From Candidatus Eisenbacteria bacterium RBG_16_71_46 (GTDB lineage Bacteria; Eisenbacteria; RBG-16-71-46): DNA of 64,000 nucleotides. Shown in pieces: positions 4,471 to 48,292 of this stretch (within the stretch, counting starts at the first letter, position 1; each line of letters opens with the position of its first letter). The stretch lies in contig MFFQ01000124.1 in assembly GCA_001780165.1 (NCBI GenBank), positions 2,825 to 66,824 of the forward strand, given 5' to 3'. A program made the position numbers and the translations under genes. The notes under the pieces were generated by a model. That model saw nothing but the letters and a program-made list of their open reading frames with translations, was not told where the DNA came from and did no database searches.

Positions 4471-5178
4471 ATTCCCCCTATCAAGCAGCCGGAAGTCCGT
4501 GTGAACGATCGTATTCGCGTCCCGCAGGTCCGGGTGATCGGCGATGACGGATCGCAGATCGGGGTGCTGCCGGTGCGCGAGGCCCTCGCGATGGCGCAGT
4601 CGAAGGCGCTCGACTTGGTCGAGGTTTCGCCCACGGCGCGCCCCCCCGTGTGCCGGATCATGGACTACGGAAAGTTCAAGTACGAGCAGAACCGACGCAA
4701 TCGCAAAGCCAAGAAGAAGCAGCATCAGATGCAGCTCAAGGAGATCAAGCTGCGACCCAAGATCGAAGGGCACGACTACGGCTTCAAGGTCCAGCACGCG
4801 CGCGACTTCCTGACCTCGCGCGACAAGGTGAAGATCACGGTGACGTTCCGCGGGCGCGAGATGGCGCACCAGGACATCGGCCATCGGCTCATCCAGAAGG
4901 TGATCGCCGATCTCGCCGACGTCTCGACCGTGGAATCGTCGCCGCGCTCCGAGGGACGCACCCTCAACGCCGTGCTGATGCCGAAGCCGCCCAAGCCGGG
5001 CGGCAAGAGCGAGCATCGAGAGAGCGCAGGATCCTCCGGCGCGAAGTCGCCGGCCCCCAAGTCCGGCGCCAAGTCGCCGGCCCCCAAGTCCGGCGCGAAG
5101 CCGTCGGCCTCCCAGCCCGGCGCGGATTCGCCGGCCCCTCAGCCCGGCGCGCAGGCGCAAGCCGGCAGCAAGGAGTAG
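4471..5178 (+). CDS. infC: Translation initiation factor IF-3 with ATT start and repetitive C-terminal tail
   Basis: N.RIR.PQVRVI, PPVCRIMDYGKFKYE and KEIKLRPKI motifs; in-frame ATT at 4471, 8 nt after AAGGAGG (the ORF track gives GTG 4501). Confidence 0.95.
   Translation: MPPIKQPEVRVNDRIRVPQVRVIGDDGSQIGVLPVREALAMAQSKALDLVEVSPTARPPVCRIMDYGKFKYEQNRRNRKAKKKQHQMQLKEIKLRPKIEGHDYGFKVQHARDFLTSRDKVKITVTFRGREMAHQDIGHRLIQKVIADLADVSTVESSPRSEGRTLNAVLMPKPPKPGGKSEHRESAGSSGAKSPAPKSGAKSPAPKSGAKPSASQPGADSPAPQPGAQAQAGSKE
5035..5151 (+). repeat. 27-bp coding tandem repeat (about 4.3 copies; SGAKSPAPK-like units) in infC
   Basis: Units start at 5035, 5062, 5089, 5116 and 5143, consensus tccggcgcgaagtcgccggcccccaag. 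Confidence 0.9.
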
Positions 5179-5184
5179 CCACTC

Positions 5185-5382
5185 ATGCCCAAGCAGAAGA
5201 CCAATCGTGCCGCGGCCAAGCGCTTCACGCTCACCGGCACCGGCAAGCCCAAGCGCGCGCGCTCCGGCGTGCGCCACGGCATGATCGGCAAGCCCCGCGA
5301 TCGCAAGCGTCACCTCACCGGCACGGTCCTGGTGGCCGACGTCGACGCGCCGCGGGTCCTGCGACTGCTCGGAAAGCGTTGA
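5185..5382 (+). CDS. rpmI: 50S ribosomal protein L35
   Basis: MPKQKTNRAAAKRFTLTGTGK; follows infC. Confidence 0.96.
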   Translation: MPKQKTNRAAAKRFTLTGTGKPKRARSGVRHGMIGKPRDRKRHLTGTVLVADVDAPRVLRLLGKR

Positions 5383-5453
5383 CCCGAACGACCACGCAAC
5401 GCTCCGCCCGCGGCCCCCGGCCGCAACGACCGCGGAGCAGGAGGTAGAGCCCC

Positions 5454-5810
5454 ATGCCACGCGCAAAGACCGTCGTTCCGGGACGTGCCCGGCGGCGCAA
5501 AGTCCTCAAGGCCGCCAAGGGCGGCTTCAGCGGCCGCCGCAAGCTGTACAAGACCGCCATCCAGACCGTGCAGCGGGCCGGTCAGTTCGCCTACGAGCAC
5601 CGGCGGACCCGCAAGCGGGACTTCCGCCGCCTGTGGATCACCCGCATCAACGCCGCCGCCCGCATCAACGGCATGTCCTACAGCACGCTGATCTCGGGCC
5701 TCAAGAAGGCGAACGTGGACGTGAACCGCAAGCTGCTCGCCGACATGGCGGTCCGCGATGCCGCGGCGTTCGCGAAGATCGCGGAGGTGGCGAAGTCGGC
5801 GGTCGCGTGA
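5454..5810 (+). CDS. rplT: 50S ribosomal protein L20
   Basis: MPRAK..., [26 protein letters not shown]. Confidence 0.98.
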
Positions 5811-6979
5811 CCGCGGACCGGCAGCCGCATCCGCTCGCGGCGGGGCTGCTGCCCGCGAACTGGGACGAGGGCACCCCCGATCCCGGGCGCCTGGCGCCCG
5901 AGCACGCGGCCCACGTCGGGGAGCTGCAGCGCGCCGGCGCCGACCTCGCCGCGTTCTTCGCCCGGGCGGCCAACGGGCTCGCGGCAGCCGCCGACCTCCC
6001 GGAGTTGGACGAGCGCCATACCACGTTGCTCGGTCGCGAGCGCGGCCACGTCACGCTCGCGCTCGGCGACCTGCCGCACGTGCCGCTCGAGGAGCGCAAG
6101 CGGCTCGGGCGGGCCTACAACCTGGCGAAGCGCTGGCTCGGCGAGCTCGAGGCGGCCCAGCGCCGCGCGCTCGAGCAAGAACGCGAAGCCCGCGGCGCCG
6201 GGATGCTCGATGTCACGCTCCCGGGCCGGCGACCGTGGGTCGGCCACCGCCACGTGCTGGCGCAGATCCGCGAGGAGCTCCTCGACCTGTTCCACGGACT
6301 GGGCTACTCGGTCTACACCAGTCCCGAGGTCGAGCACGAGGCCTACAACTTCGGCAAGCTCAACTTCCCGCCCGATCACCCGGCGCGCGACGCGCACGAC
6401 ACCTACTTCGTGAGCGACACGCGGCTGCTGCGCACCCACACCTCGCCGGGCTGGGTGCGGGCGATGGAGGAGCGCCGCCCGCCGCTGCGCCTGGTGTTCC
6501 CGGGGCGCGTCTACCGCGCCGAGCAGGTGGACGCCTCGCATATGGACCAGTTCCACCAGGTGGACGGCCTGTTCGTGGCGCGAGACGTCAGCATGGCGGA
6601 CCTCAAGGGCACGCTCAACACCTTCGCGCGCTCGATCCTCGGCGCGGGAGTGCGCACGCGGATGATTCCGATCTACTTTCCGTTCGTCGAACCCGGCGCC
6701 CAGCTCGACGCCTCGTGCGTGAACTGCGCGGGGGAGGGGCGGACGCGGGGGCCCGACGGCGAGCGCCGCTGCGCGGTGTGCAAGGGTTCGGGCTGGCTCG
6801 AGCTGCTCGGCGCGGGCATGGTGCATCCGAACGTATTCCGCGCCGTGGGCTACGACCCCGAGGAGGTCACCGGCTTCGCCTTCGGCATGGGGCTCGAGCG
6901 CATCGCGATGGTGCGTCACGGCATCCCCGAGATCCGGCTGTTCCTCGAAAACGACATGCGGTTCCTGAGCCAGTTCTGA
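5807..6979 (+). CDS. pheS: Phenylalanine--tRNA ligase alpha subunit
   Basis: [44 protein letters not shown]; GTG overlaps the rplT stop. Confidence 0.96.
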
Positions 6980-34607: not shown

Positions 34608-36028
34608 GCAAGGCGAACATCCTGCTGGTCGACGACCAGGAGTCGATCCGGCACTTCGTCCGAAAGGCCCTCGAGGACGAGGGCTTCGAGGTCCGCTCCA
34701 CCGGCTCGATCCGCGAGACCCGCGAGGCGCTGGGCAGCGACCTCCCGGACCTGGTCGTGCTCGACCTCAAGCTTCCGGACGGGAACGGCATCGAGATGCT
34801 GCGCGAGATCAAGCGGGCCCAGCCGGAGCTGCCGGTGATCCTCATGACCGCCTTCGGCGACCTGGAAACCGCCGTCGAGGCGATGAGCGCCGGGGCCTTC
34901 TGGTTCGTCAAGAAGCCGTTCCAGAACGAGGAGCTGCTGGCCCTGGTGGCGCGCGCGCTCGAAGCCCACAAACTGTGGCTCGAGATCAAGCGGCTGAGGC
35001 ACGGCGCCTTTGCCGACGAGGACTACCTCCATTCGTCGAGTCCGAGCATGCAGGAGGCCTACGCGATCGCCGAGCAGGTGGCGCGCGGCGACACCACCAG
35101 CGTGCTCATCGAGGGCGAGAGCGGGACCGGGAAGGAGTACTTCGCCAACCTCATCCACCGCATGAGTGCGCGACACGCCCATCCGTTCGTCGAAATCAAT
35201 TGCGCCGCCATCCCCAGCGAGTTGCTCGAAAGCGAGCTGTTCGGGCACGAGAAGGGCGCCTTCACCGACGCCCGCGCGCAGAAGCAGGGATTGATGGAGC
35301 TGGCGAGCGGCGGCACCCTGTTCCTCGACGAGATCGGGGAGATGAACCCGATGCTCCAGGTCAAGCTGCTGCGGGTGCTCGAGCGCCGGAACTTCAAGCG
35401 CGTCGGCGGCACCAAGGACATCACCGTGGACGTGCGCATCATGTCGGCCACCAATCAGGACCTCGAGAAGCGGGTGCGGGAGGGGGGCTTCCGCGAGGAC
35501 CTCTACTACCGCCTCAAGGTGGTGCCGCTCTACGTCCCGCCGCTGCGCGAGCGCAAGGACGACATCGTGCCGCTGTCGCGACTGTTCATGGAGCGGTTTG
35601 CCAAGCAGTTCAAGAAGCCGTTCCGCGAGATCTCGCCGGGCGCCGAGCGCATGCTCACCGACTATCCCTGGCCGGGCAACATCCGTGAGCTCAAGAACCT
35701 GTTCGAGCGCACGGTGCTGCTCGAGGTGGGCGAGGTGCTCGAGCCCCGGCACCTCAAGCTCGCGCCGCGCACCCGGCCCGGCGTCGAGGTCACCCTCGGT
35801 CAACGCGTCGACGAGTACCTCAGCGGGGCCCTTGCCGAAAGCGGCATCCCGTTCGAGGCCGTGATCGAGGAGCTGGAGCGAGCCTTGATTCTGCGCGCCT
35901 CGTATGCTACCAAGTGGAACCAGAGTCGCACCGCGGAGCTGCTCAACCTCAAGCGCGACAAGCTCCGTTACCGGATGAAGCTCTACGAGATCCAGCCGGA
36001 GAGCGAGGCGACGACCCCGACCGAATAG
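34604..36028 (+). CDS. sigma54-dependent NtrC/AtoC-family response regulator (REC-AAA+-Fis HTH)
   Basis: LVDD, DLKLP, GESGTGKE, ESELFGHEKGAFTDA, FREDLYYRL, WPGNIREL. Confidence 0.95.
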   Translation: MSKANILLVDDQESIRHFVRKALEDEGFEVRSTGSIRETREALGSDLPDLVVLDLKLPDGNGIEMLREIKRAQPELPVILMTAFGDLETAVEAMSAGAFWFVKKPFQNEELLALVARALEAHKLWLEIKRLRHGAFADEDYLHSSSPSMQEAYAIAEQVARGDTTSVLIEGESGTGKEYFANLIHRMSARHAHPFVEINCAAIPSELLESELFGHEKGAFTDARAQKQGLMELASGGTLFLDEIGEMNPMLQVKLLRVLERRNFKRVGGTKDITVDVRIMSATNQDLEKRVREGGFREDLYYRLKVVPLYVPPLRERKDDIVPLSRLFMERFAKQFKKPFREISPGAERMLTDYPWPGNIRELKNLFERTVLLEVGEVLEPRHLKLAPRTRPGVEVTLGQRVDEYLSGALAESGIPFEAVIEELERALILRASYATKWNQSRTAELLNLKRDKLRYRMKLYEIQPESEATTPTE

Positions 36029-36038
36029 GCGCCCGCAC

Positions 36039-36560
36039 GTGGTGAGAATCGGCACGTCGACCCTGGGCCTGTGGGTGTTGTGCGCGGCCGCGACGTGCGG
36101 CTCGTGCGCCTACACCACCACCAGCGCGCTGCTGCCTCCCCACATCAAGACCGTGGCGATCCCGGTGTTCGAGAACGCCACCACCGAGTACACCCTGGAG
36201 CAGGACGTCACGAACGCGGTGATCGCGCGCTTCGTGGCCGACAACCACCTGCGCGTGGTGGACGAGCGCTCGGCGGACGCGGTGATCCGCGGACGGATCG
36301 TCAGCTACCAGAACTCGGTGTTCGGCTTCACCGCCCAGACCGGGGCGCAGGAGTACCGCGTGAGCATCGGGGTCTCGGCGGTGTTCAAGGACCAGGTGAA
36401 GAACCGCGAGATCTGGAACGAGCCCAACCTGCTCAAGACCGCCAACTACTACGTGCAGGACGTGCCGGGCCAGACCGCGAAGACGGAGCTCGATGGACGC
36501 AAAGAAGCGATCGACAAGATCGCCGACGAAATCCTCAGCCGCAGCATCGAAGGCTGGTAG
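36039..36560 (+). CDS. LptE-family lipoprotein
   Basis: Cys-containing signal peptide; LPPHIKTVAIPVFEN motif typical of LptE-like proteins; next to holA/leuS. Confidence 0.75.
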   Translation: MVRIGTSTLGLWVLCAAATCGSCAYTTTSALLPPHIKTVAIPVFENATTEYTLEQDVTNAVIARFVADNHLRVVDERSADAVIRGRIVSYQNSVFGFTAQTGAQEYRVSIGVSAVFKDQVKNREIWNEPNLLKTANYYVQDVPGQTAKTELDGRKEAIDKIADEILSRSIEGW

Positions 36561-37578
36561 CCAGGGCGCCGGCGCCGCGGCGCGCCGGCCGGCGCGCAAG
36601 GGTGCTCCGGCGCGGCCCGCGACCGCCGACGGATTCGAGTTGCTGACCCGCGCCGATCGCGGCGAGTTCCCGCCGTCGCTCTACCTGGAGGGCCCGAGCG
36701 AGCCGCTGAAGGCGGCGTTCCTCGCCGCGTGGCGCCGCGCGTGGGCGGAGGCGTGCCCCGAGGCGCCGATCGGGCGCGTGTTCCGCACCGCCGAGAGCGG
36801 GGTGGAGGAGATCCTCGCCGCGCACCAGAGCGCCTCGCTGTTCAGCCCGCGCAACCTCCACATCGTGCTCGAGATCGAGGACCTGGGCCGCAGCGAGAAG
36901 AAGGTCGCTGCCCTTGCCGCCGGACTCGCGCACCCCGCGGGCGCCTCGTGCCTGGTGCTGGTCGAGTCCGAAGCCGACAGCCCGCGCAAGACGCTGGAGC
37001 CGCTGCGCGCCGCCAGCGCCGCGCGCTGGGTGGCGTGGCCCGCGGATCGGCGCGCGCTCGCGCGCTGGGGCGAGCGCCGCCTCGCGCAGGAAGGCGTGGG
37101 GGCGGAGCCCGGGGTGATCGAGGCGCTGGTGGACGCGTGCGAGGGCGACACCCTGGCGTTCTTCAACGAGCTCGACAAGCTGTGCACGCTCGCCGGCGGC
37201 TCCGGGCCGCGCCGCATCGCGCCCGCCGACGTCGCCGCACTGCTGCGCCCCACGGTCGGCGCCGACCTGCCCGCGTACCTCGGCGCGGTGGCGCTGGGGC
37301 AGCCGCGGCTCGCGGCCCAGCGCCTCGGGCGGCTGCTCGCGAGCGGCGTGGGGGAGGGCACGGTGCTCTTCGCTCTCTCGAACCTGGTGGGGGGCGCCCT
37401 CGGGGGATGGGCGCGCTGGCGCGACCTCAGCTTCGCCCTCGCCCGCCGGGTGCCGCCCCCGGGGTTGTCGCGGGCGATGGACGCCCTGTTCCGCGCCGAG
37501 GCGGCGTGGAAGGGCGGGCGCGCCGATTCGATCGCGGTGCTGGAGCAGGTGACGAGGGCGGTCTCGGGCCAGGGCTGA
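36493..37578 (+). CDS. holA: DNA polymerase III delta subunit-like protein (divergent; start uncertain)
   Basis: YLEG.., SLFSPR, GD....NELDKL pattern; position beside lptE and leuS. Confidence 0.7.
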
Positions 37579-37658
37579 GGCCGGTGGCAGCACGCGCTTG
37601 CCGCGGGCTCGGCGCCGGTGATAGCGTTCGCGCCCCCCGAACCATCACAGGACCATCC

Positions 37659-40109
<2,451 letters not shown>

Positions 40110-40654
40110 GCGCCGGCAAGTAGGCGCTGGCGCCGCGTGGCGTTCGCCGCGGCGCAGGGCGGGGCGGGAGGGCGGGCGGACCCGCTCGAGCACCGCGGGG
40201 GAGACTCGCGATGGTCTGGTGGAAGGCCGGCCGACGCCTCGCGCTGGTCCCCGGTCTCCTGGCGGCCCCGCATCTCGCCCTGGCGTGGAGGCCGGGCACG
40301 GCTCCGGCGGCCGCTGCCGATCGGCGTCTCGCGTATCCGGCGCTCCTGGACGCCGGCGCGACCTGGACGAGGGCCGGGCGTCGGACTCGGCCGGGGGACC
40401 CGGCACGCGACCTACGCGGGGCGCCACCCCCCGCTCCCGGTGCGCGGCCGCCGGGCCGTCGGACTCCGCCACGAAGTGCCGCAGAATGCAGCACGCCATG
40501 AGGGACCCCATCCCGCCCCCGGCGTCCCCGCCAACCGTTTGCACAAGAAGTGAACCGAAAGTGAGCGGCGGATCGATTTCACTCTTGATGCCCCCGCGAC
40601 GGCAGTAGACTCACTTCACGGTGAGATTCGCACCTGCACGGAAAGGAGAGTTTT

Positions 40655-42109
40655 ATGGGCCGCCACCTCCCGACACCCGCCACGATTATCTCCGCGCTCA
40701 TCGGCACGCTGCTGTTGTCCGGATCGGCATTAACTCCCGTGCGTGCCGCAAGCGGGACATTCACCACGACAGTCGACAACACGGTCTCCCCGCCGAGAAT
40801 CGACATCACCTACACGCCCGCGGTGAATTGCGCCAAGGTCCTCCTGAGCCAGACCGTCAAACCGACGCTGAGCGACGCGGATGGATCCAATGCCGTCGAC
40901 TGTCCATTCAAGGACTGGGACGCATACGCAATCAACGACATCACGACCGTGGCCGGCAATACCAGTATCGATCACAACTTCTGCGAGAAGGATCACTACT
41001 ACAACGGCGACGACAATCCTCAGGACAACCTGAAGGGCAATCAGCAGGGAAGCAAGGCGGGTGCGACCGTGGTCGACGCGAAGCTGCGGGACAAACCGCA
41101 CGCCAACGTGCCCAAGAACGGCAAGGACAAGTTCACGGCGGAATTCGAGACCTGCGCCATCTGCGCCGACGACGGCACGGTCCTGGGCTGCATGACGTGG
41201 AAGTACGAGAACACGAGTGGCGGCGCCGAGAAGATCACGGTGACCGGGGGCGCAGGCGGCAATCCTCCGGCGGATCCCTCGGCGACCTTTGGAACCGCGG
41301 TCACCAAGTTCAAGGACACTCACACCAAGGACGGCAATCCCATCTGCCCGGAGAAAGTGGCGGCGGACGCCAAGAAGAACCGCGAGGGAGGGAAAACCGT
41401 GGACGTCGATCCGATCCTCATCCCTCCCCCCGGCAACGGGGAGGATCCCGGCTACATCATCACCTACGAGGTCCTCCCGGCCCTCGGACCGTTGGGTTAC
41501 GCGCTGCTGGCCGGTCTTCTACTTGCAGGGGGGCTGTTGGTGCTCGGCCGGCGGCGAGCGGTCGGACTGGCAGTGATGCTCGCGCTCATCCTGATTTCGG
41601 GTCTGCCGCGCAGCTTGCAGGCAGCGACATGCGTCTCGTACCCATCCATCGTGGCCGGAAGCCCCACGGAGTACGCGGACTACGAGATGCGGTTCTGCTG
41701 GATCGGGGAGGCGAAATCCAAACCCACGTTCGGCCTCAACGGGGTTTCGCGGACCTTCAACTTCGCGGACTTCGAGCCGTGCGCGCTTCCTCCCGAAAAG
41801 TACGACGACAACTCCAACGTGACGCTGACCCTCTCGAACACGGAGTGGAATGACTTCATCAATCGCCTCGGGTCCTACTCGGAGTTCTACGGGTTTGGAA
41901 CCGTCCCGGGAGCCTCTCTGTCACTTCAGATTCTCAGAGGCACCGGTCCAGGCACACTGATCTACGAGCACGTCACGAACAGGACCGGGGCGCGGACGAT
42001 GCTCCTGCTCCTGATCGACAGCATTTCCCCTGGCAACACCGCCGCGCTCGACCTGACGATCGCGATGAAGAGAATCTACCTCGGAGACTGCGTGAACTGC
42101 GGCCAGTAG
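40655..42109 (+). CDS. Secreted two-domain hypothetical protein with an internal sorting-signal-like TM and a second signal-peptide-like segment
   Basis: AAAGGAG RBS; N-terminal signal peptide (..TPVRA); Cys-containing domain; VLPALGPLGYALL..GRRR; AVGLAVMLALILISGLPRSLQA; second Cys-containing domain. Confidence 0.85.
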   Translation: MGRHLPTPATIISALIGTLLLSGSALTPVRAASGTFTTTVDNTVSPPRIDITYTPAVNCAKVLLSQTVKPTLSDADGSNAVDCPFKDWDAYAINDITTVAGNTSIDHNFCEKDHYYNGDDNPQDNLKGNQQGSKAGATVVDAKLRDKPHANVPKNGKDKFTAEFETCAICADDGTVLGCMTWKYENTSGGAEKITVTGGAGGNPPADPSATFGTAVTKFKDTHTKDGNPICPEKVAADAKKNREGGKTVDVDPILIPPPGNGEDPGYIITYEVLPALGPLGYALLAGLLLAGGLLVLGRRRAVGLAVMLALILISGLPRSLQAATCVSYPSIVAGSPTEYADYEMRFCWIGEAKSKPTFGLNGVSRTFNFADFEPCALPPEKYDDNSNVTLTLSNTEWNDFINRLGSYSEFYGFGTVPGASLSLQILRGTGPGTLIYEHVTNRTGARTMLLLLIDSISPGNTAALDLTIAMKRIYLGDCVNCGQ

Positions 42110-42370
42110 GGGCCCGAGAGCCGCTCGCGCGGGCCGGCCACGCAGAAGGCTCGCCAAGAGGGGTCAGCCTTCGCGCGCGCCCGTCGCGCGCGCCAGGCCA
42201 GGCTCGGGGCGGTGTAAGCCCGTCTCGTTCGCGCTGGGCCCGGCGGCCAGCCATTGTGCCGCCGGGCTCCTTCGTTCGTCCCCACCGTTCCAACAGCGGG
42301 AGAGGGAATGCCCGAGACGCTGTGCCGACGGCCGAATCGGGCCGCGGATCCGAATCGGTCCAAGGCTCCA

Positions 42371-42398
42371 GGTTTACATAATAGATATTATGCGACAC
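42371..42398. other. dif-like XerC/XerD recombination site
   Basis: The - strand reads GTGTCGCATAA-TATCTA-TTATGTAAACC versus E. coli dif GGTGCGCATAA-TGTATA-TTATGTTAAAT; intergenic AT-rich patch at the gene-strand switch. Confidence 0.85.
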
Positions 42399-42507
42399 GC
42401 TGATTGGGCGTCCTGGGACGGATCCGGCGGCGGTGGCCGGTGCGCTACACTGGGCCCGCTTCCCGCTCGCGCCTGACAAACGCTCGATTCCCTCGAAAGA
42501 CCACGCC

Positions 42508-43461
42508 ATGCGACCACCGGCTTCGAGCCTCGGCCTCGTCCTCGCGCTCGGCTTGCTCGTCCTGCCCGCCCTGATCTCCGGCGTCGCCCGGGCCGAAGGT
42601 CGCGGCATCCTCGGTCGCTGGGACCTGACGCTCCACACCGCGCACCGCGCGCTGCCGGCCTGGTTCGAAATCGCGGACCAGGGCGGCACGCTGGGCATGC
42701 GCTACGTCGGCTGGGTCGGCGGCGCGCGCCCGGTGTCCCGGCTCGAGTATTCCGACCGCCAGATCCGCTTCAGCCTGCCCACACAGTTCGAGCGGCCGGG
42801 CGGGACGCTCACCTTCACCGGCCGCTTCAACGGTGCGTGGCTCGAGGGCGAGGGCTCGCTCGGCGGCGGCCCGGCCTTCCGCTGGACGGCGGTGCGATCA
42901 CCCGGGCTGGCCCCGAGGCCGCGCCCGCGCTGGGGCGAGCCCATCGCGCTGTTCGACGGCCGCGACCTCGACGGCTGGTGCCGCCGCCACGAGGGCGGCG
43001 AGGCGTGCTGGGGCGTCGAGGACGGCGTGCTCTCGAGCCAGGCGCCGTGCGTGGACCTGGTGAGCCGCCGGCGCTTCCGCGACTTCAGGCTGCACGTCGA
43101 GTTCCGGCTCGCCGAGGGCGCCGACAGCGGTATCCACCTGCGCGGTCGCTACGAGATCCAGCTCAGGGACGACAACCGCATGGATCCGGCCGAGGGGTGG
43201 CACGCCGGCCTCTACGGCTTCATCGCCCCGGCGAGCGACGCGCGCCGCCCCGCGGGCGAATGGCAGACCTGCGACGCCACCTTGATCGGCCGCCGCGTGA
43301 CGGTGGTGATGAACGGCGTCACGGTGATCGACGACCAGGAGATTCCGGGCATCACCGGCGACGCGCTCGACAGCGACGAGGGCGCGGCAGGACCGATCAT
43401 GCTCCAGGGCCGCGCGGGCGGGGTGTCGTTCCGCGACATCACCGTCGTGCCCGCTCGGTGA
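42508..43461 (+). CDS. Secreted DUF1080 (3-keto-disaccharide hydrolase-like) protein
   Basis: Signal peptide; LFDGRDLDGW, FRDFRLHVEF, DSGIHLRGRYEIQ, GEWQ, GPIMLQG, VSFRDI. Confidence 0.88.
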   Translation: MRPPASSLGLVLALGLLVLPALISGVARAEGRGILGRWDLTLHTAHRALPAWFEIADQGGTLGMRYVGWVGGARPVSRLEYSDRQIRFSLPTQFERPGGTLTFTGRFNGAWLEGEGSLGGGPAFRWTAVRSPGLAPRPRPRWGEPIALFDGRDLDGWCRRHEGGEACWGVEDGVLSSQAPCVDLVSRRRFRDFRLHVEFRLAEGADSGIHLRGRYEIQLRDDNRMDPAEGWHAGLYGFIAPASDARRPAGEWQTCDATLIGRRVTVVMNGVTVIDDQEIPGITGDALDSDEGAAGPIMLQGRAGGVSFRDITVVPAR

Positions 43462-43494
43462 GTCGTTGCCGCGCCATCGGTCAGGACGGTGTCT

Positions 43495-44322
43495 TCAAGT
43501 GTTGTCTAGGGTCATGCACACCTTGGAGTATGCCAGCTGAAACCCCGCGCGGCGCACGTTGCGCTCCGAGTCCGAGTCGGCGTTGACCTTGACCACGACC
43601 TGCGCGCAGCCGAGCGTGCGCGCGGCGTCCACGCGGGCCCGCAGCACCGCGCTCTGCACCCCACGCCGGCGGAACACGGGCAGCGTGACCATCGAGAACA
43701 GGTGCCCGCGGGTGCGCGAGGCGTCGAGCGCCCCGCCCCCGGCATCCTCCCCCTCCACCCGCGCGAGGTAGCACAGCACGCCGTCGCGCCGGCAGGCGGT
43801 CCGCCCCAGGCGCAGGCCCCGCTCGAACTCGGGACCGGCCTCGGCCCCGGTGAAGCCGTGCGTGACCGTCCGCGCCCAGCGCTCGTAGTCCTGCGGCCCG
43901 ACCCGCGCCACCTCGACGCCCGGCGCCGGATCGGCCGCGGCAGGGCCGGCTGACGGCTCGATCTCGAGCGCGTAGACCCGCAAGGCGTGCTGGAGGCTGT
44001 ACCCGCGAGCTTCGAGCATCGCGCGAAGTCCGGGATCGGTCGGGTCGCACGCCTCGACGCGCGGCGGCGACCCGAGGCGGCGGTAGAACGCCTCGACCCG
44101 ATCGAGGTCCGCGGGACGCGTCGGCCCGGCGAGCCCGAGTCCCGCGGTGCGGTTGAGCGGGTCGCCCGGGCCGGTGAAGATCGCCCACCCGCCGGCGACC
44201 GCGATCGCCTCGGCCTGGGGTGCGAAGCCGAGCCGGCCCATGGTCCGCACGTAGTCGAGCAGGACGACCGCGTCGTCCTCCTCGACCGCGCGCGCGATAT
44301 CCCCCGCCCCCGCCTCGCTCAC
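43495..44322 (-). CDS. GNAT-family N-acetyltransferase
   Basis: C-terminal acetyl-CoA motif TLPVFRRRGVQSA and SERNVRRAGF; GTG overlaps the upstream gene's stop. Confidence 0.85.
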   Translation of the reverse strand: MSEAGAGDIARAVEEDDAVVLLDYVRTMGRLGFAPQAEAIAVAGGWAIFTGPGDPLNRTAGLGLAGPTRPADLDRVEAFYRRLGSPPRVEACDPTDPGLRAMLEARGYSLQHALRVYALEIEPSAGPAAADPAPGVEVARVGPQDYERWARTVTHGFTGAEAGPEFERGLRLGRTACRRDGVLCYLARVEGEDAGGGALDASRTRGHLFSMVTLPVFRRRGVQSAVLRARVDAARTLGCAQVVVKVNADSDSERNVRRAGFQLAYSKVCMTLDNT

Positions 44323-44531
44323 CCCGGCGCGTCCTTGCGCAGCAGCACGATCTGGCCCGCGTGGTAGAGGTGGTGCACCAACTCCCAGATCGAGTGCGCC
44401 GCGCGGATCGGCCGCGCCGCCGCCTGCGACGCCGTCACCCCCGCGAGCGCCAGACGCACCTCCGGGCCGTGCCACGCAGGGCCCTGCCACGCCCGGTCCA
44501 ACTGGTCCACGATCCGTGCGATCTCTCCCAT
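44319..44531 (-). pseudogene. Internally deleted DinB/YfiT-like protein (70 aa)
   Basis: N-terminal GPAWHGP..AAARPI..AHSIWELVHH joins directly to C-terminal LYHAGQIVLLRK; AGGAGG RBS intact. Confidence 0.65.
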
Positions 44532-44787
44532 CGCCGCCTCCTGATCCCCCGCCCGCGCGAGACCCGCGGCCGCGCGTCCCGGACGGCGCGCGTCGCGGCT
44601 CACCCCCGAGCGTCGCCAGCATACACGGTGCGCGGGCGCGGGGCCGGGACCGGCGCGAGTCGTGAGCGACACCCGACCTGCTCGCGTCCCCACCCGAGCC
44701 CACCTGCCGCACCCTTCGCCCAGATCCGGGACACCGGCTCGCACCGCCCGCTGCGTGGCACCCCCGGCCATGCGCTATGCTCCGCGC

Positions 44788-46146
44788 GTGCAAGCGATCA
44801 ATCCCGCCACCGGGGAGCCGCTGGCCCACTACCCCGAGCACGATGCCGCGACCGCGGCGCGGATGCTCGAGACGGCCGGCGAGGCGTTCATCTCCTGGCG
44901 CCGCGCGCCGCTCGCCCAGCGCGCGGTCCTGCTCGGGCGCGCCGCCCAGCTGCTGCGCTCGGGCAGTGCCGGGTTCGCCCGCACCATGACGCTCGAGATG
45001 GGCAAGCCGATCGCCGCCGCGGAGGCCGAGGTCGAGAAGTGCGCCTGGGTCTGCGAGTACTTCGCCGAGCATGCCGCCGAGTTCCTCTCCCCCACGCCGG
45101 TCTCGAGCGACGCGAGGCGCAGCTTCGTGCGCTACGACCCGCTGGGCGTGGTGCTCGCCGTGATGCCGTGGAATTTCCCGTTCTGGCAGCTGTTCCGCTG
45201 TGCGGCGCCGGCGCTGATGGCGGGCAACGTGGTGGCGCTCAAGCACGCCGCCAACGTGCCCGGATCGGCACTCGCCATCGAGAAGGTGTTTCGCGAGGCG
45301 GGCTTCCCGCCGGGCGGCTTCACCACCTTGTTGGTGCCGTCGCCGGGCGTCGCCGCGCTGATCCGGCATCCCGCGGTGGCCGCGGTCTCGCTCACCGGCA
45401 GCGAGGCGGCGGGTGCGGCGGTCGCCGCCGAGGCGGGACGCGAGATCAAGAAGACCGTGCTCGAGCTGGGCGGATCGGACCCGTTCGTGGTGCTCGCCGA
45501 CGCCGATCCCTCGCGGGTCGCGGAGCAGGCGGTGGCGGCGCGCACCATCAACAACGGGCAGAGCTGCATCGCCGCCAAGCGCTTCATCGTCGAGGAGCCG
45601 GTGGCCGAGGCGTTCGAGGCGGCGATGGTGGAGCGCATGCGCGCGCTCCGGCTCGGCGACCCGCTGGACCGCGCCGTGCAGCTCGGGCCGCTGGCGCGCG
45701 CCGACCTGCGCGACGAGCTGCACCAGCAGGTGCGGCGCTCGGTGCGCGCCGGAGCGAGGCTGTTGGCCGGCGGCGCCGTGCCGGAGGGACCGGGCTTCTT
45801 CTACCCCGCGACGGTCCTGACGCGGGTCGTGCCGGGGATGCCGGCGTTCGACGAGGAGACCTTCGGACCGGTGGCGGCGATCGCGCGGGCGCGCGACGCG
45901 GCCCACGCCGTCGAGCTCGCCAACCGCTCGCGTTTCGGGCTCGGCGCCAGCCTGTGGACCGGCGACCCGGCGCGCGGCGAGTCGCTGGCCGCCGAGATCG
46001 AGGCCGGGGCGGTGTTCGTCAACGGCATCGTCAAGTCCGACCCACGGCTGCCCTTCGGCGGCATCAAGCGCTCGGGCTACGGGCGCGAGCTGGCGCGCGA
46101 GGGGATCCGCGAGTTCGTCAACGTGAAAACCGTCTGGGTGGGCTGA
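44788..46146 (+). CDS. NAD(P)-dependent succinate-semialdehyde dehydrogenase-like aldehyde dehydrogenase
   Basis: QAINPATGE, MPWNFP, LTGS, LELGGSDP, GQSCIAAKR, EETFGPV, PFGGIKRSGYGREL. Confidence 0.92.
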   Translation: MQAINPATGEPLAHYPEHDAATAARMLETAGEAFISWRRAPLAQRAVLLGRAAQLLRSGSAGFARTMTLEMGKPIAAAEAEVEKCAWVCEYFAEHAAEFLSPTPVSSDARRSFVRYDPLGVVLAVMPWNFPFWQLFRCAAPALMAGNVVALKHAANVPGSALAIEKVFREAGFPPGGFTTLLVPSPGVAALIRHPAVAAVSLTGSEAAGAAVAAEAGREIKKTVLELGGSDPFVVLADADPSRVAEQAVAARTINNGQSCIAAKRFIVEEPVAEAFEAAMVERMRALRLGDPLDRAVQLGPLARADLRDELHQQVRRSVRAGARLLAGGAVPEGPGFFYPATVLTRVVPGMPAFDEETFGPVAAIARARDAAHAVELANRSRFGLGASLWTGDPARGESLAAEIEAGAVFVNGIVKSDPRLPFGGIKRSGYGRELAREGIREFVNVKTVWVG

Positions 46147-46156
46147 GCCGCGCCGC

Positions 46157-48292
46157 TCACGCGCTCCACATCGACGCTTCGTAGCCGGCATCGGGCACGG
46201 TGAAGCGCACCGCGTCGTCACCGGGAATGCTCTCCACCGGCTCGCCCCCGCGCAGGAGCACCAGCACCAGCTCCACGGCTTCGCCCGGGGCCAGCCCCAG
46301 CGCTACGAACGGCACCCCGAGCTCGAGCACGCTCCCGAGGGCGCACTCGGCACCCTCGACCGGGGCGCCGGCGCGGCCGTCCATGTCCCAGGTCACCGCG
46401 CGCCGCCCCCGGGCGAGGCCGCGCACGGCGAGCCGGCGCGAGTTCGGGGCGAGCAGCTCCAGCACCAGGTCGAGCCCCGGCTCGGGCGGCCGGTGGGCGG
46501 TAAAGTCGAGTCGGAGATAGAGGGCGGTGGCGTCGAAGCCGAAGTGGACCTCGCTCACCCACCGCCGGCTGCGATGCGTCGCGCTGCCGCTGTCCACCCG
46601 GTGCCGGCCCGCGGCGTACCACTCGTAGAAGTCCGACAGGCGCCCGTCGATCTGCGGATGCAGGAAGCCCAGCGGCTGCTCCCACACTTCGCGCGGGCCG
46701 CGCACGCCGAGGATCGGCACCTGGAGCCACCCCGGCACCGGGTGGCCGCTGCGCTCGAAGGCGGCCTGCAGGTGCTCGCGGAAGATGCGCTCGAACAGCG
46801 CCTTGTCGGAGGTGTAGTGGTCCTCCCCCAGCCACCAGAACCAATCCGAGCCCTCGGCGGCATCGATCGCGTGCCAGGCCTCGGGATGCGATGCCGCGGT
46901 CACGCCCGCCTCGACCAGCACCCGCCGCGAGCGCGCCAGCAGATCCCAGGCGCGGTTCTTCTCCGGGTGGCCGATCCAGATGTGGAAGTCGGCGTCGATC
47001 CACGAGCCGGTGTGGAGCGCTTCGAGCCGCGGCAGCGTCCCCCGTTCGGCCAGCACCTGCGACGGCGTGCGCGTGCGGATGTCGGGCGCGGCCTCGAGCG
47101 CGGCGTAGAGCGCGTCGAGGAAGGGACCACCGTCGTTCGCGTAGTACTCCCAGCAGTTCTCCCCGTCGAGGATGACGCTCACCACCGGGGGGCCGTCGCC
47201 GCGCTGCTCGCGGCCGATGCGGCGCAGGCGCGCGAGGAAATCCGACACCGCCTCCTCGACGCTCCAGCGCTGGTAGACGAACCCGATGCGATCCGACAGC
47301 TCGTGATCGCGGAAGAAGAGCGCCACGTCCCCGGCGGGCGTGGACACCGCCCACGGGCGGTAGCGCGGGTCACCGCGCGGGGGCTGCGCCGGCCGCGAGC
47401 GCGCGAGGACGCTCTCGTCGCTCGCCAGCCAGCGCAGCCCCAGGCGGGCCGCGATCTCGGCGACTTCGGGACTCACGCTGCCCTCCGGCGGCCACATGCC
47501 CTGGGGCCGGGAGCCGAAGACCTGCGCGTGGCGCGCGATCGCCCGCTCGATCTGGCGCGTGGCATCCTCGGGGCAGGCGAACGGCAGCGCGGGCAGCCGC
47601 AGGTCGGGCTTCGCCCGGCGCGCGCTCGCGACGTCCACGAGCAGGGGCAGGATCGGGTGGCAGTAGGCGGACTCCGACAGCTCGATCTGTCCCCGCTCGG
47701 CGAGCGCGCGGTAGGCCGGGATCACTCGCGCCGCCAGCCGCGCCTGCAGGAGGAGCAGCGCGTCGCCGTGCGCCTCGGTCAGCGGACCCGGCTCGTCGAG
47801 CGCCTGCCGCGCCTCGGGCTCGTCGTGGAACATCGGATCGATCCAGGCGAGCAGGAACCAGGCTTCGAGCGCCGCCAGCTCCGCGTCGCTGAGCGCCGGC
47901 GCGGACGGATCGTGGCGCGTCGCGTTCGCCCGATCGCACAGTGCCCGGAAGCGCGGCCAGCGCTGAAGCGCATGCCGCGGCGCCAGCACGCAGCGCGCCG
48001 CGAGCTCGGCGCGCTCCGCCGGCGCGAGCCCGCCCACCGGACGCGCGATGAGCTCCATGAGCGCGTCCGCCGTGGTGAGGCCGCTCTCGAGCTGGTCGAG
48101 CAGCGTGGGGACGAAGTTGAACGTGGCGCGGAGCCCGGGGTGGCGCTCGAGCCGCAGCGCCATGTCGAGGTAGTCCTTGGTGGCGTGGAGGCGCACCCAG
48201 GGCAGCAGGCCCCGCCCATCATGCGGGCCGCGATAGTCCGGCTGGTGGTGATGCCAGAGGAAGATCAGGTCGACGGCAGGTGTCTCGCTCAA
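46157..48292 (-). CDS. Glycoside hydrolase family 57 protein (amylopullulanase/alpha-amylase-like)
   Basis: WHHHQP, LPWVRLHATKDY, HPILPL, GMWPPEGSVS, ILDGENCWE, AEGSDWFWW. Confidence 0.93.
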   Translation of the reverse strand: MSETPAVDLIFLWHHHQPDYRGPHDGRGLLPWVRLHATKDYLDMALRLERHPGLRATFNFVPTLLDQLESGLTTADALMELIARPVGGLAPAERAELAARCVLAPRHALQRWPRFRALCDRANATRHDPSAPALSDAELAALEAWFLLAWIDPMFHDEPEARQALDEPGPLTEAHGDALLLLQARLAARVIPAYRALAERGQIELSESAYCHPILPLLVDVASARRAKPDLRLPALPFACPEDATRQIERAIARHAQVFGSRPQGMWPPEGSVSPEVAEIAARLGLRWLASDESVLARSRPAQPPRGDPRYRPWAVSTPAGDVALFFRDHELSDRIGFVYQRWSVEEAVSDFLARLRRIGREQRGDGPPVVSVILDGENCWEYYANDGGPFLDALYAALEAAPDIRTRTPSQVLAERGTLPRLEALHTGSWIDADFHIWIGHPEKNRAWDLLARSRRVLVEAGVTAASHPEAWHAIDAAEGSDWFWWLGEDHYTSDKALFERIFREHLQAAFERSGHPVPGWLQVPILGVRGPREVWEQPLGFLHPQIDGRLSDFYEWYAAGRHRVDSGSATHRSRRWVSEVHFGFDATALYLRLDFTAHRPPEPGLDLVLELLAPNSRRLAVRGLARGRRAVTWDMDGRAGAPVEGAECALGSVLELGVPFVALGLAPGEAVELVLVLLRGGEPVESIPGDDAVRFTVPDAGYEASMWSA

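What the first reader, a model, noticed from the sequence alone, without database searches (positions are those of the whole stretch)
40655..42109. Candidate bacterial polyprotein: signal peptide, domain A, internal IPTL-CTERM-like sorting signal, second signal peptide, domain B
Seen: residues 273-301 (nt 41471-41557) read VLPALGPLGYALLAGLLLAGGLLVLGRRR. This is the motif/TM/Arg-cluster layout of C-terminal sorting signals such as IPTL-CTERM, which normally end a protein. Here the RRR doubles as the n-region of a second signal-peptide-like segment (AVGLAVMLALILISGLPRSLQA|A, nt 41558-41623). A ~160-aa domain with 5 Cys follows and ends in CVNC; domain A has 7 Cys. Inference: both domains are exported, and cleavage by a sorting protease and by signal peptidase I would release two proteins at 1:1 from one ORF (for example effector plus partner). 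The gene looks less GC-rich than its neighbours and ends 260 bp from dif, suggesting acquisition. This is my best candidate for an undescribed system.
Basis: partly seen in the sequence, partly recalled or inferred. Interest (0 to 1): 0.8.

Follow-up and report, generated by a model that had tools for sequence, protein, structure and literature searches.

The report
Two secreted proteins fused into one
A soil or sediment bacterium has joined two neighbouring genes for exported proteins into one gene that keeps a membrane sorting tag and a second export signal in its middle, so it is probably cut into two proteins after export.

Summary
ORF 40655-42109 (484 aa) reads signal peptide, Cys-rich domain A, motif/TM/RRR sorting signal (res 273-301), second signal-peptide-like segment (302-323), domain B.

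It is a real, recurrent gene fusion. Two metagenome contigs carry A and B as separate, overlapping genes. There A ends just after the same motif/TM/basic tail, and B starts with a normal N-terminal signal peptide. Fused forms occur in at least three further lineages.

Contigs from other samples cross the junction without a difference.

The genome has one exosortase-family gene. It just passes the XrtH cut-off (87-88 vs 86 bits). One split locus has such an exosortase about 1 kb downstream.

The internal tag is the genome's second-best IPTL-CTERM match (14.2 bits) but falls below the cut-off (20.5). It is not a member of NCBIfam "midcut-by-XrtH" (9 vs 45 bits), the only precedent I found.

A and B match no Pfam or NCBIfam family and have confident models without PDB fold matches. 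They sit fused or adjacent at 13 of 17 B places.

Cleavage into two proteins is inferred, not shown, and function is unknown. The gene is GC-poor cargo in a variable slot between leuS and a conserved dif-like site.

The parts
40643..40648 (+). Shine-Dalgarno-like AAGGAG, 6 nt before the ATG
   Evidence: read directly from the sequence
40655..42109 (+). whole ORF, 484 aa plus stop: a fused A-B precursor
   Evidence: An identical 484-aa protein is in the protein collection (P0002). Contigs from other runs cover it without differences.
40655..40747 (+). N-terminal Sec-type signal peptide, residues 1-31 (…TPVRA|ASG)
   Evidence: n/h/c layout by inspection. The hydrophobic segment 9-23 was found. 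No SignalP was available.
40748..41470 (+). domain A (Cys-rich beta-rich fold, about res 32-243) plus a Pro-rich linker (about 244-272)
   Evidence: AF2 model with pLDDT 88.0 and pTM 0.84; the last 19 residues have pLDDT below 50. 123 of 134 other HMMER hits carry this domain. No Pfam or NCBIfam family matches.
41471..41557 (+). internal exosortase-type sorting signal, residues 273-301: LPALGP motif (41474-41491), TM helix (about 280-298), RRR (41549-41557)
   Evidence: IPTL_CTERM scores 14.2 bits, second best in the genome. It is positionally homologous to the C-terminal tails of P0004, P0006, L019-A and L020-A.
41558..41623 (+). internal signal-peptide-like segment, residues 302-323. The RRR before it serves as the n-region. 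Predicted signal peptidase I site is SLQA|A.
   Evidence: It aligns with the N-terminal signal peptides of stand-alone B proteins. In all of them the cut site falls just before [Q/A]-x-C-V or an equivalent.
41624..42106 (+). domain B, residues 324-484 (alpha/beta fold)
   Evidence: AF2 model with pLDDT 92.9 and pTM 0.88. Stand-alone homologues carry their own signal peptide.
42371..42398 (.). dif-like 28-mer GGTTTACATAATAGATATTATGCGACAC (context, not part of the gene)
   Evidence: It is unique in the genome. The core motif is present in 23 of 24 same-family genomes. It lies next to leuS in 4 of 4 relatives examined.

Best explanation
The ORF is a natural in-frame fusion of two adjacent genes that form a conserved pair. 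Gene A encodes a secreted Cys-rich domain that ends in an exosortase-type C-terminal sorting signal (PhiP-x-x-x-P motif, TM helix, basic cluster). Gene B lies immediately downstream, is translationally coupled, and encodes a secreted alpha/beta domain with its own Sec signal peptide. In the fused precursor both signals are kept.

Inferred mechanism: the N-terminal signal peptide sends A across the inner membrane. The sorting-signal helix stops transfer and leaves RRR in the cytoplasm. The next hydrophobic segment acts as an internal signal peptide and restarts export, so B also reaches the periplasm. Signal peptidase I then cuts after Ala323 and frees B (new N-terminus ATCVSY). The genome's single XrtH-like exosortase cuts at or near LPALGP and frees or transfers A. 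A hairpin of about 48 residues stays in the membrane. The result is A and B at 1:1.

Shown here: the anatomy, the fusion/split relationship, the conserved A-B linkage, the presence of the exosortase, and the reality of the junction. Inferred: both cleavages, the topology, and any A-B interaction. The biochemical roles of A and B are unknown. My guess is that A is a surface-sorted effector or binding module and B is its periplasmic partner.
For: (1) Split orthologues. In L019, A (4997-5941) ends ...YPALSAPNLLLLIGLFLTAGVLLAYRSKRLAIRSLT*. B (5938-6495) starts at a GTG overlapping the TGA. In L020, A ends ...MPALSNRSILVLVMLLLASSLLLLRRGHRPPPMEVTHG*, and B (769-1326) starts at an ATG 8 nt before A's stop.
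(2) Other fused forms have the same order of parts: P0003 (483 aa, 45% id), P0005 (578 aa) with its relative in genome G035 (L004), and P0008 (458 aa, 31% id). All five fused sequences keep Ala at -1 before the start of B.
(3) In the B-domain tree, the window protein, fused P0003 and the split forms make one clade (100/99). The split forms are nested inside it (91/83).
(4) Enzyme. There is 1 exosortase-family match in the genome. It scores 87.2-88.0 bits on XrtH against a cut-off of 86. L020 has an XrtH/ArtB-like exosortase about 1 kb downstream of B (78 bits on XrtH). It is 32% identical to the G000 enzyme, and the Cys, Arg and His motifs align.
(5) An XrtH-like gene is present in 3 of 3 assessable cases where A carries this tag (G000, G035, L020). 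It is present in 2 of 8 genomes whose A-B pair lacks the tag.
(6) Four G000 proteins end in tags of the same style, on C96 (two), C103 and C109.
(7) The junction is real. X3 record 6 (41096-41751) and X6 record 12 (41422-41611) show 0 differences and 0 gaps.
(8) An A domain lies on the same strand, fused or adjacent, at 13 of 17 B places examined.
Against: No experiment or proteomic data shows either cleavage. The internal tag scores 14.2 bits on IPTL_CTERM, below the 20.5-bit cut-off, with E 0.35 for one genome. The XrtH call for the enzyme is marginal, and 29 of the 30 XrtH-like genes in 61 related genomes are below the cut-off. The exosortase is on another contig (C13), not beside the gene. 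The -3 residue of the predicted internal signal peptidase site is Leu, which is not the commonest choice, and no signal-peptide predictor could be run. The cytoplasmic loop is only three residues (RRR), a tight hairpin. The co-occurrence counts are small and the genomes are kin. X3 shares a study with X1, the possible source run. X6 shares a sample with X4, which may be the same data set as X3, so independence of the read support is limited.
Confidence: 0.6

Rival explanations
1. The fusion is real, but the protein is not fully cut. It stays as a two-TM hairpin-anchored membrane protein with A and B both on the periplasmic side. Alternatively only signal peptidase I acts, so that B is released while A stays anchored by the hairpin.
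For: The two hydrophobic segments with RRR between them fit a stable helical hairpin. The tag is below the IPTL_CTERM cut-off. Every curated C-terminal sorting model I tested expects the tag at the protein's end, whereas here 183 residues follow it.
Against: In split orthologues A and B are separate polypeptides, so tethering is not needed for function. All five fused sequences keep Ala at -1 in front of B. They also keep the PhiP-x-x-x-P motif in front of TM1, which would be free to drift if no protease read them.
Confidence: 0.27
2. The fusion is an assembly or sequencing artefact, or a recent inactivating mutation (a frameshift that joined two genes), without biological meaning.
For: Split homologues with stop and restart exist. 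Sequencing depth in the laid runs is low, about 3-7.
Against: Contigs of three runs agree letter for letter over the junction. Fused forms recur at 45%, 35% and 31% identity and in relative G035 at the DNA level. Both domains give confident folds.
Confidence: 0.03
3. B is made mainly from an internal start inside the fused ORF (for example at Met308). The long ORF would then yield A with a long membrane tail, plus a separately translated B.
For: An in-frame GTG-ATG lies at residues 307-308. In the split forms B has its own start.
Against: No Shine-Dalgarno-like sequence precedes it. A product starting at Met308 would lack the positively charged n-region. Ribosomes reading A would still run on into B.
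Confidence: 0.1

Closest known systems
NCBIfam NF033207 'midcut-by-XrtH protein'
   Same: Going by the model's name, it is a protein with an XrtH-type sorting signal in its middle rather than at its end. It was the only NCBIfam model to touch this ORF. The match lies on the right place, residues 268-332 against model positions 26-93.
   Different: The score is 9 bits against a cut-off of 45, so this ORF is not a member. The model is 175 positions long and the tag starts at about position 26, so the family cannot hold a 240-residue domain in front of the tag. No genome of 201 in this phylum has a match over the cut-off. What that family does, and whether it lies beside XrtH, is known to me only from the model name and from recall. 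I found no paper on it.
IPTL-CTERM / exosortase H sorting system (TIGR04174 / TIGR04177)
   Same: The tag has the same three parts: a Pro-containing motif (LPALGPLG here, versus IPTLxxWG, a consensus I recall rather than took from a call), a TM helix, and an Arg cluster. An XrtH-scoring enzyme is in the same genome. Four true C-terminal tags of this style are in the genome.
   Different: The tag is internal and scores below the cut-off (14.2 vs 20.5 bits). The enzyme only just reaches the XrtH cut-off, and its relatives fall below it. The enzyme beside the split pair in L020 scores slightly higher on archaeosortase B (82 bits) than on XrtH (78 bits).
Bradyrhizobium japonicum FbcH, the cytochrome b/c1 precursor cut at an internal signal peptide (recalled: Thony-Meyer, James and Hennecke, PNAS 1991; no text seen, and the term fbcH was not found in any of the 8 papers listed)
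   Same: One bacterial ORF yields two proteins. The second is released by signal peptidase at an internal signal sequence that follows a membrane-embedded part.
   Different: The first product there is a polytopic membrane protein, not an exported soluble domain. No sorting-enzyme cleavage is involved. The proteins are unrelated.
PEP-CTERM/exosortase and PGF-CTERM/archaeosortase A systems
   Same: A short C-terminal motif/TM/basic tag on Sec-exported proteins is read by an exosortase-family enzyme (abstract of 10.1101/2023.06.07.544157).
   Different: In all descriptions I could read, those tags are C-terminal. Neither text that I searched for such wording mentions an internal tag followed by a second signal peptide: 10.1101/2023.06.07.544157 and PMC3237569.

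Membership tests
IPTL-CTERM sorting domain (TIGR04174) | HMM score at or above the curated cut-off (20.5 bits) | tested here: not met
   The score is 14.2 bits with E 0.35 in the six-frame scan of the genome. It is the second best of 7 matches; the best is a true tag at 22.4 bits.
IPTL-CTERM sorting domain (TIGR04174) | Three parts: signature motif, TM helix, basic cluster | tested here: met
   The segment reads LPALGP, then about 19 hydrophobic residues, then RRR.
IPTL-CTERM sorting domain (TIGR04174) | Located at the extreme C-terminus of the protein | tested here: not met
   183 residues follow the RRR. In split orthologues the tag is C-terminal.
IPTL-CTERM sorting domain (TIGR04174) | Cognate exosortase H in the same genome | tested here: met
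   G000:C13 (L002:844-1539, minus strand) scores 87.2 and 88.0 bits against a cut-off of 86. It is the only exosortase-family match in the genome.
midcut-by-XrtH protein (NF033207) | HMM score at or above the curated cut-off (45 bits) | tested here: not met
   The score is 9 bits with E 1.3, on residues 268-332 only. The best hits in the genome are ordinary C-terminal tags at 21 bits or less.
VPxxxP-CTERM sorting domain (TIGR04143) | HMM match to the tag | tested here: not met
   There is no match on the segment. The two matches in the genome lie elsewhere, at 13.2 bits or less.
Sec-type (signal peptidase I) signal peptide, for residues 302-323 | Positive n-region, hydrophobic h-region, small residue at -1 and an allowed residue at -3 | tested here: inconclusive
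   The segment reads RRR / AVGLAVMLALILISGL / PRSLQA|A, with Ala at -1 and Leu at -3. It is positionally homologous to the N-terminal signal peptides of stand-alone B proteins. No SignalP-type predictor was available.
Exosortase H (TIGR04177), for the enzyme | Score over the cut-off, with conserved Cys, Arg and His motifs | tested here: met
   The scores are 87.2 and 88.0 against 86. DCSPH, NTIRIV and FAHVYLWQ align with ECTAVH, NQVRLV and TAHLLVWQ of the L020 enzyme. That these are the catalytic residues rests on recall.

The most novel reading that the evidence does not exclude
A and B form a previously undescribed two-component extracellular module. A is sent to the surface by whichever sorting route the host has: an exosortase tag, a T9SS-type C-terminal domain, or none. 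B is its obligatory periplasmic partner, for example a chaperone, inhibitor or immunity-like protein. In the fused form the cell makes a true bacterial polyprotein that is cut by two unrelated membrane proteases, an exosortase acting on an internal site and signal peptidase I. This delivers both partners at the same translocon at 1:1 and leaves a hairpin remnant. Repeated switching between fused and split genes would be a natural demonstration that exosortase signals work away from a C-terminus.
Probability: 0.35. Interest if true: 0.75.

Novelty: new variant of a known kind. Interest (0 to 1): 0.62.

Why it matters
Exosortase systems are widespread, but their chemistry is almost untested. What they cut, and what they attach the protein to, is largely unknown. 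This ORF offers a substrate with a built-in read-out. If the tag is cut internally, two soluble domains of known size appear and a defined hairpin remains, and natural split versions serve as controls. It would also be a rare bacterial case of one exported ORF giving two exported proteins through two membrane proteases. Separately, A and B are two unannotated domain families. Both have confident predicted folds with no PDB match at E <= 0.001, and their linkage is conserved across three different sorting architectures. That makes the pair a well-defined target for function discovery.

Tried and rejected
- A-B binding: complex prediction with alignments A3 and A4 gave no verdict (score 0.26, mark 0.32).
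- Fold searches: Foldseek against the PDB gave no match at E <= 0.001 for A or B. BFVD gave none for A.
- PDB sequence profiles for A and B: 0 matches at E <= 1.
- Family libraries: Pfam and NCBIfam gave nothing beyond the weak hits reported. PADLOC and PHROGs gave 0.
- ESM Atlas: scores of 0.83 or less for B, and no usable hit for A.
- Word-indexed protein search: it found only the protein itself. The exhaustive HMMER search was needed to find relatives.
- Genome-contig scans: none for B. One distant A fragment turned up in a Bifidobacteriaceae MAG. Two alignments were too diverse to scan with and one was too large.
- Expression: no RNA holder was listed. Run X5 laid nothing.
- VPxxxP-CTERM model: no hit on the tag.
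- Second dif-like site: none was found within 36000-47000 that would mark a Xer-integrated element. The only other match is the site's own reverse strand.
- Promoter and terminator scan of 40050-42500: 1 weak promoter-like site inside the ORF and no terminator.
- Earlier findings were not open. The Haft 2012 paper was not held.
Full report
**Observation**

The ORF at 40655-42109 (+) is open for 484 codons and has AAGGAG 6 nt before the ATG.
- Residues 273-301 (nt 41471-41557) read VLPALGPLGYALLAGLLLAGGLLVLGRRR.
- Residues 302-323 (nt 41558-41623) read AVGLAVMLALILISGLPRSLQA and are followed by ATCVSY.
- Domain A has seven Cys and domain B has five.
- The C-terminus reads ...CVNCGQ.

A simple hydropathy scan finds three hydrophobic segments: 9-23, 280-298 and 300-319. 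The gene has 62.2% GC in a genome of 70.9%. Its GC3 is 82%, against 95% in the neighbouring leuS.

**Curated libraries**

Pfam gives nothing. NCBIfam gives one weak line, NF033207 'midcut-by-XrtH protein'. It scores 9 bits against a cut-off of 45 and lies exactly on residues 268-332. That is not membership. It did point to exosortase H.

The window's genome (3.72 Mb, 128 contigs, completeness 100) has a single exosortase-family match, on contig C13. That 231-aa ORF scores 87.2 bits on TIGR04177 (XrtH), against a cut-off of 86. The next best model, XrtX, scores 61.5 bits.

A six-frame scan of the genome with the IPTL_CTERM model returns 7 matches at E <= 10. The best (22.4 bits, over the cut-off) is a true C-terminal tag on C96...GLPTWGIGALTLLLLAAGAAFLRRREPATA*. 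The second best (14.2 bits, under the cut-off) is the internal segment of this ORF.

My own scan for C-terminal 'Pro motif, hydrophobic stretch, basic cluster' tails returned 16 frames. Four of them are tags of this style, on C96 (two), C103 and C109. These are the same four that the midcut model picks up through its tag region. The VPxxxP_CTERM model does not hit the segment.

**Relatives**

The word-indexed search found only the protein itself. The exhaustive HMMER search found 135 proteins at E <= 0.001. I read 16 of them in full. For all 136 stored proteins I examined the last 45 residues and the hydrophobic segments. They fall into four groups:
- Fused like the query: P0003 (483 aa, 45% identity, aligned 23-479), P0005 (578 aa, with an extra domain between A and the tag) and P0008 (458 aa, 31% identity).
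- A ending in the tag: P0004 (318 aa) ends ...DIPALSPGVMTGLAILFVTSALILLWRNRRRIPPGTEVTYG. HMMER aligns it to the query through residue 301, the last Arg. P0006 is similar.
- B alone: eleven proteins of 117-281 aa, each with an N-terminal signal peptide.
- The remaining hits carry domain A only. Of 10 that I scanned with Pfam, 4 had a family hit: Ig, CARDB, Por_Secre_tail or dockerin, all extracellular modules. The other 6 had none.

**The split form at DNA level**

A scan of metagenome contigs with a B alignment gave two loci.

In L019, gene A (4997-5941) ends ...YPALSAPNLLLLIGLFLTAGVLLAYRSKRLAIRSLT. Gene B (5938-6495) starts at a GTG that overlaps A's TGA.

In L020, A ends ...MPALSNRSILVLVMLLLASSLLLLRRGHRPPPMEVTHG. 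B (769-1326) starts at an ATG 8 nt before A's stop. Downstream in L020 lie two further genes. The first is a membrane protein with a SEC-C motif. The second is an exosortase that scores 78 bits on XrtH and 82 bits on archaeosortase B. It is 32% identical to the G000 enzyme over 166 residues, and the Cys, Arg and His motifs align.

So the query's residues 273-301 correspond to a tag that really ends a protein elsewhere. Residues 302-323 correspond to a signal peptide that really starts one.

**Is the fusion real here?**

Logan contigs of three runs cover the junction with no other letters and no gaps: X1 record 1 (40500-42162), X3 record 6 (41096-41751) and X6 record 12 (41422-41611). X5 laid nothing.

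There are limits to this support. X1 may be the source of the window. X3 is from the same study as X1. X6 shares a sample with X4, which may duplicate X3. Independence is therefore limited and depth is low.

Stronger support comes from recurrence. The fused layout is seen at the DNA level in a same-family genome (G035, L004, a 580-aa continuous frame). It is also seen in P0003 and P0008.

In a maximum-likelihood tree of 26 B domains, the window protein, fused P0003 and the split forms L019-B, L020-B, P0007 and P0043 form one clade (100/99). The split forms are nested inside it (91/86, 91/83). Either one fission or two fusions happened in this clade alone, so the two states interconvert.

All five fused sequences keep Ala at -1 immediately before the start of B. 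They also keep a PhiP-x-x-x-P-type motif before TM1: LPALGP, VPALFP, APAVSP, MPGASP and LPLLSP.

**A and B are a conserved pair**

B occurs in 9 of 61 related genomes and in 13 of 206 genomes of the phylum. A occurs in 6 of 61.

I built HMMs of A and B and ran them over all fetched loci. An A domain lies on the same strand, fused or adjacent, at 13 of 17 distinct B places. The four without A are G006, G015, G024 and G025:C207, each with about 1.5 kb of upstream sequence in hand.

Three architectures appear:
- Class I: A with the TM tag, then B, either fused or split.
- Class II: B, then A followed by a CARDB-like region and a tail like those of the A homologues that matched Por_Secre_tail (judged by eye, not scanned). 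This occurs in G037 (twice), G136 and G128.
- Class III: an N-terminal extension, then A without an anchor, then B with a C-terminal extension of about 140 aa. This occurs in G019, G025, G052 and G153, and loosely in G062.

An XrtH-like gene (E <= 1e-5) is present in 3 of 3 assessable class I cases: G000, G035 and L020. It is present in 2 of 8 genomes of the other classes: G037 and G062 have it, while G136, G128, G019, G025, G052 and G153 do not. The background rate is 30 of 61 related genomes. The numbers are small and the genomes are kin. L019 could not be assessed because its contig ends 265 nt after B. For P0003, P0004, P0006 and P0008 I had no DNA context.

**What A and B are**

A (241 residues, 124-row alignment) folds with pLDDT 88.0 and pTM 0.84. 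The fold is mostly beta with three helices. The Pro-rich linker before the tag is disordered.

B (161 residues, 26 rows) folds with pLDDT 92.9 and pTM 0.88 as an alpha/beta domain.

No informative match was found for either domain. Foldseek against the PDB found no match at E <= 0.001 for either, nor BFVD for A. PDB sequence profiles, PADLOC, PHROGs and the ESM Atlas also gave nothing usable. Function is therefore unknown.

The sorting of A to the surface by three different routes, and the Sec-only export of B, suggest an exported effector or binding module with a periplasmic partner. That is inference only.

**Mechanism**

The best reading (confidence about 0.6) is as follows. Sec exports A. 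The tag helix stops transfer with RRR on the cytoplasmic side. The following segment restarts export as an internal signal peptide. Signal peptidase I frees B at SLQA|A. The XrtH-like exosortase cuts at the LPALGP motif and frees or transfers A. A hairpin of about 48 residues remains in the membrane.

Three rivals remain:
- Incomplete processing, leaving a hairpin-anchored protein, or release of B only (0.27).
- An internal start for B (0.1).
- An artefact or a dead fusion (0.03).

**Comparison with what is known**

The nearest precedent is the NCBIfam model name 'midcut-by-XrtH'. The ORF is not a member (9 vs 45 bits). That model has only about 25 positions before the tag. No genome of 201 in this phylum reaches its cut-off.

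Full-text searches for XrtH, for exosortase with IPTL-CTERM, and for midcut found no paper on either. Two Haft papers that I searched for such wording do not mention internal tags. The 2012 archaeosortase/exosortase paper was not held.

An internal signal peptide that splits one ORF into two proteins is known from the Bradyrhizobium cytochrome b/c1 precursor. I recall this and have not seen the text. The term fbcH was in none of the 8 papers listed.

I rate the finding as a new variant of a known kind of system, built on two undescribed domain families.

**Context**

The 28-mer at 42371-42398 is unique in the genome. Its core, ACATAATNNNNATTATG with at most one mismatch, occurs in 32 of 41 related genomes, including 23 of 24 in the same family. 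It usually occurs as one palindromic site. The reversed control pattern hits 2 genomes.

In 4 of 4 relatives that I fetched, leuS ends 135 to 1417 nt from this site. The sequence in between differs from genome to genome. In G001 the genes beyond the site match the window's. In G000 the gap is 2261 nt and holds this gene. The gene is thus cargo in a variable slot beside a dif-like site. This agrees with its lower GC. No second dif-like site flanks it.

Noticed in passing
window 42371-42398, and 40110-42370: A dif-like 28-mer is unique in the genome. Its core motif occurs in 23 of 24 same-family genomes. The stretch between leuS and this site is a variable slot: 135, 651, 1031 and 1417 nt in four relatives, with different or no ORFs, against 2261 nt here with the A-B gene. 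No second dif-like site flanks the gene.
   Followed up: yes
loci L005/L012/L022 (G037), L030 (G136), L031 (G128), L024-L026 (G019, G052, G025), L032, L033: Domains A and B form a conserved gene pair with three architectures. In one, A carries a TM tag and B follows. In another, B comes first and A carries a CARDB-like region and a tail that looks like a T9SS sorting domain (by eye, not scanned). In the third, A has no anchor and B has an extra C-terminal domain of about 140 aa ending ...AGPG(T/M/I)(R/P). Neither domain has a Pfam or NCBIfam family.
   Followed up: partly
G000 contig C13 (L002:390-836, minus strand): A 148-aa membrane protein lies 8 nt downstream of the XrtH gene. It matches no NCBIfam family at E <= 1 and is unrelated to the L020 membrane protein. 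The contig starts about 390 nt beyond it, so the rest of the exosortase locus is not assembled.
   Followed up: partly
L020:1502-2383: Between gene B and the exosortase lies a 293-aa membrane protein. It has a C-terminal SEC-C/SWIM-type Cys motif and a very weak XrtH-like stretch (E 0.015). It may be a degenerate exosortase paralogue or an accessory protein.
   Followed up: no
proteins P0012, P0036, P0038, P0040, P0041, P0045, P0049, P0053 and others: A subgroup of A-domain proteins of about 415-470 aa has no detectable N-terminal hydrophobic segment. They end in a conserved ...Y(L/I)xLNMG motif. The A fold may therefore not be restricted to exported proteins.
   Followed up: no
G000 contigs C96 (two genes about 8 kb apart), C103, C109: Four proteins end in XrtH-style tags: GLPTWG..RRR, IPGTST..RRR, VPAISWP..RR and VPGASSWG..RRRR. 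They are the likely ordinary substrates of the single exosortase.
   Followed up: partly
window 36681-40544 (minus strand): A 1287-aa open frame lies antisense to leuS. It is Arg/Ala/Gly-rich and looks like a shadow ORF of the kind expected in 71% GC DNA, not a gene.
   Followed up: no
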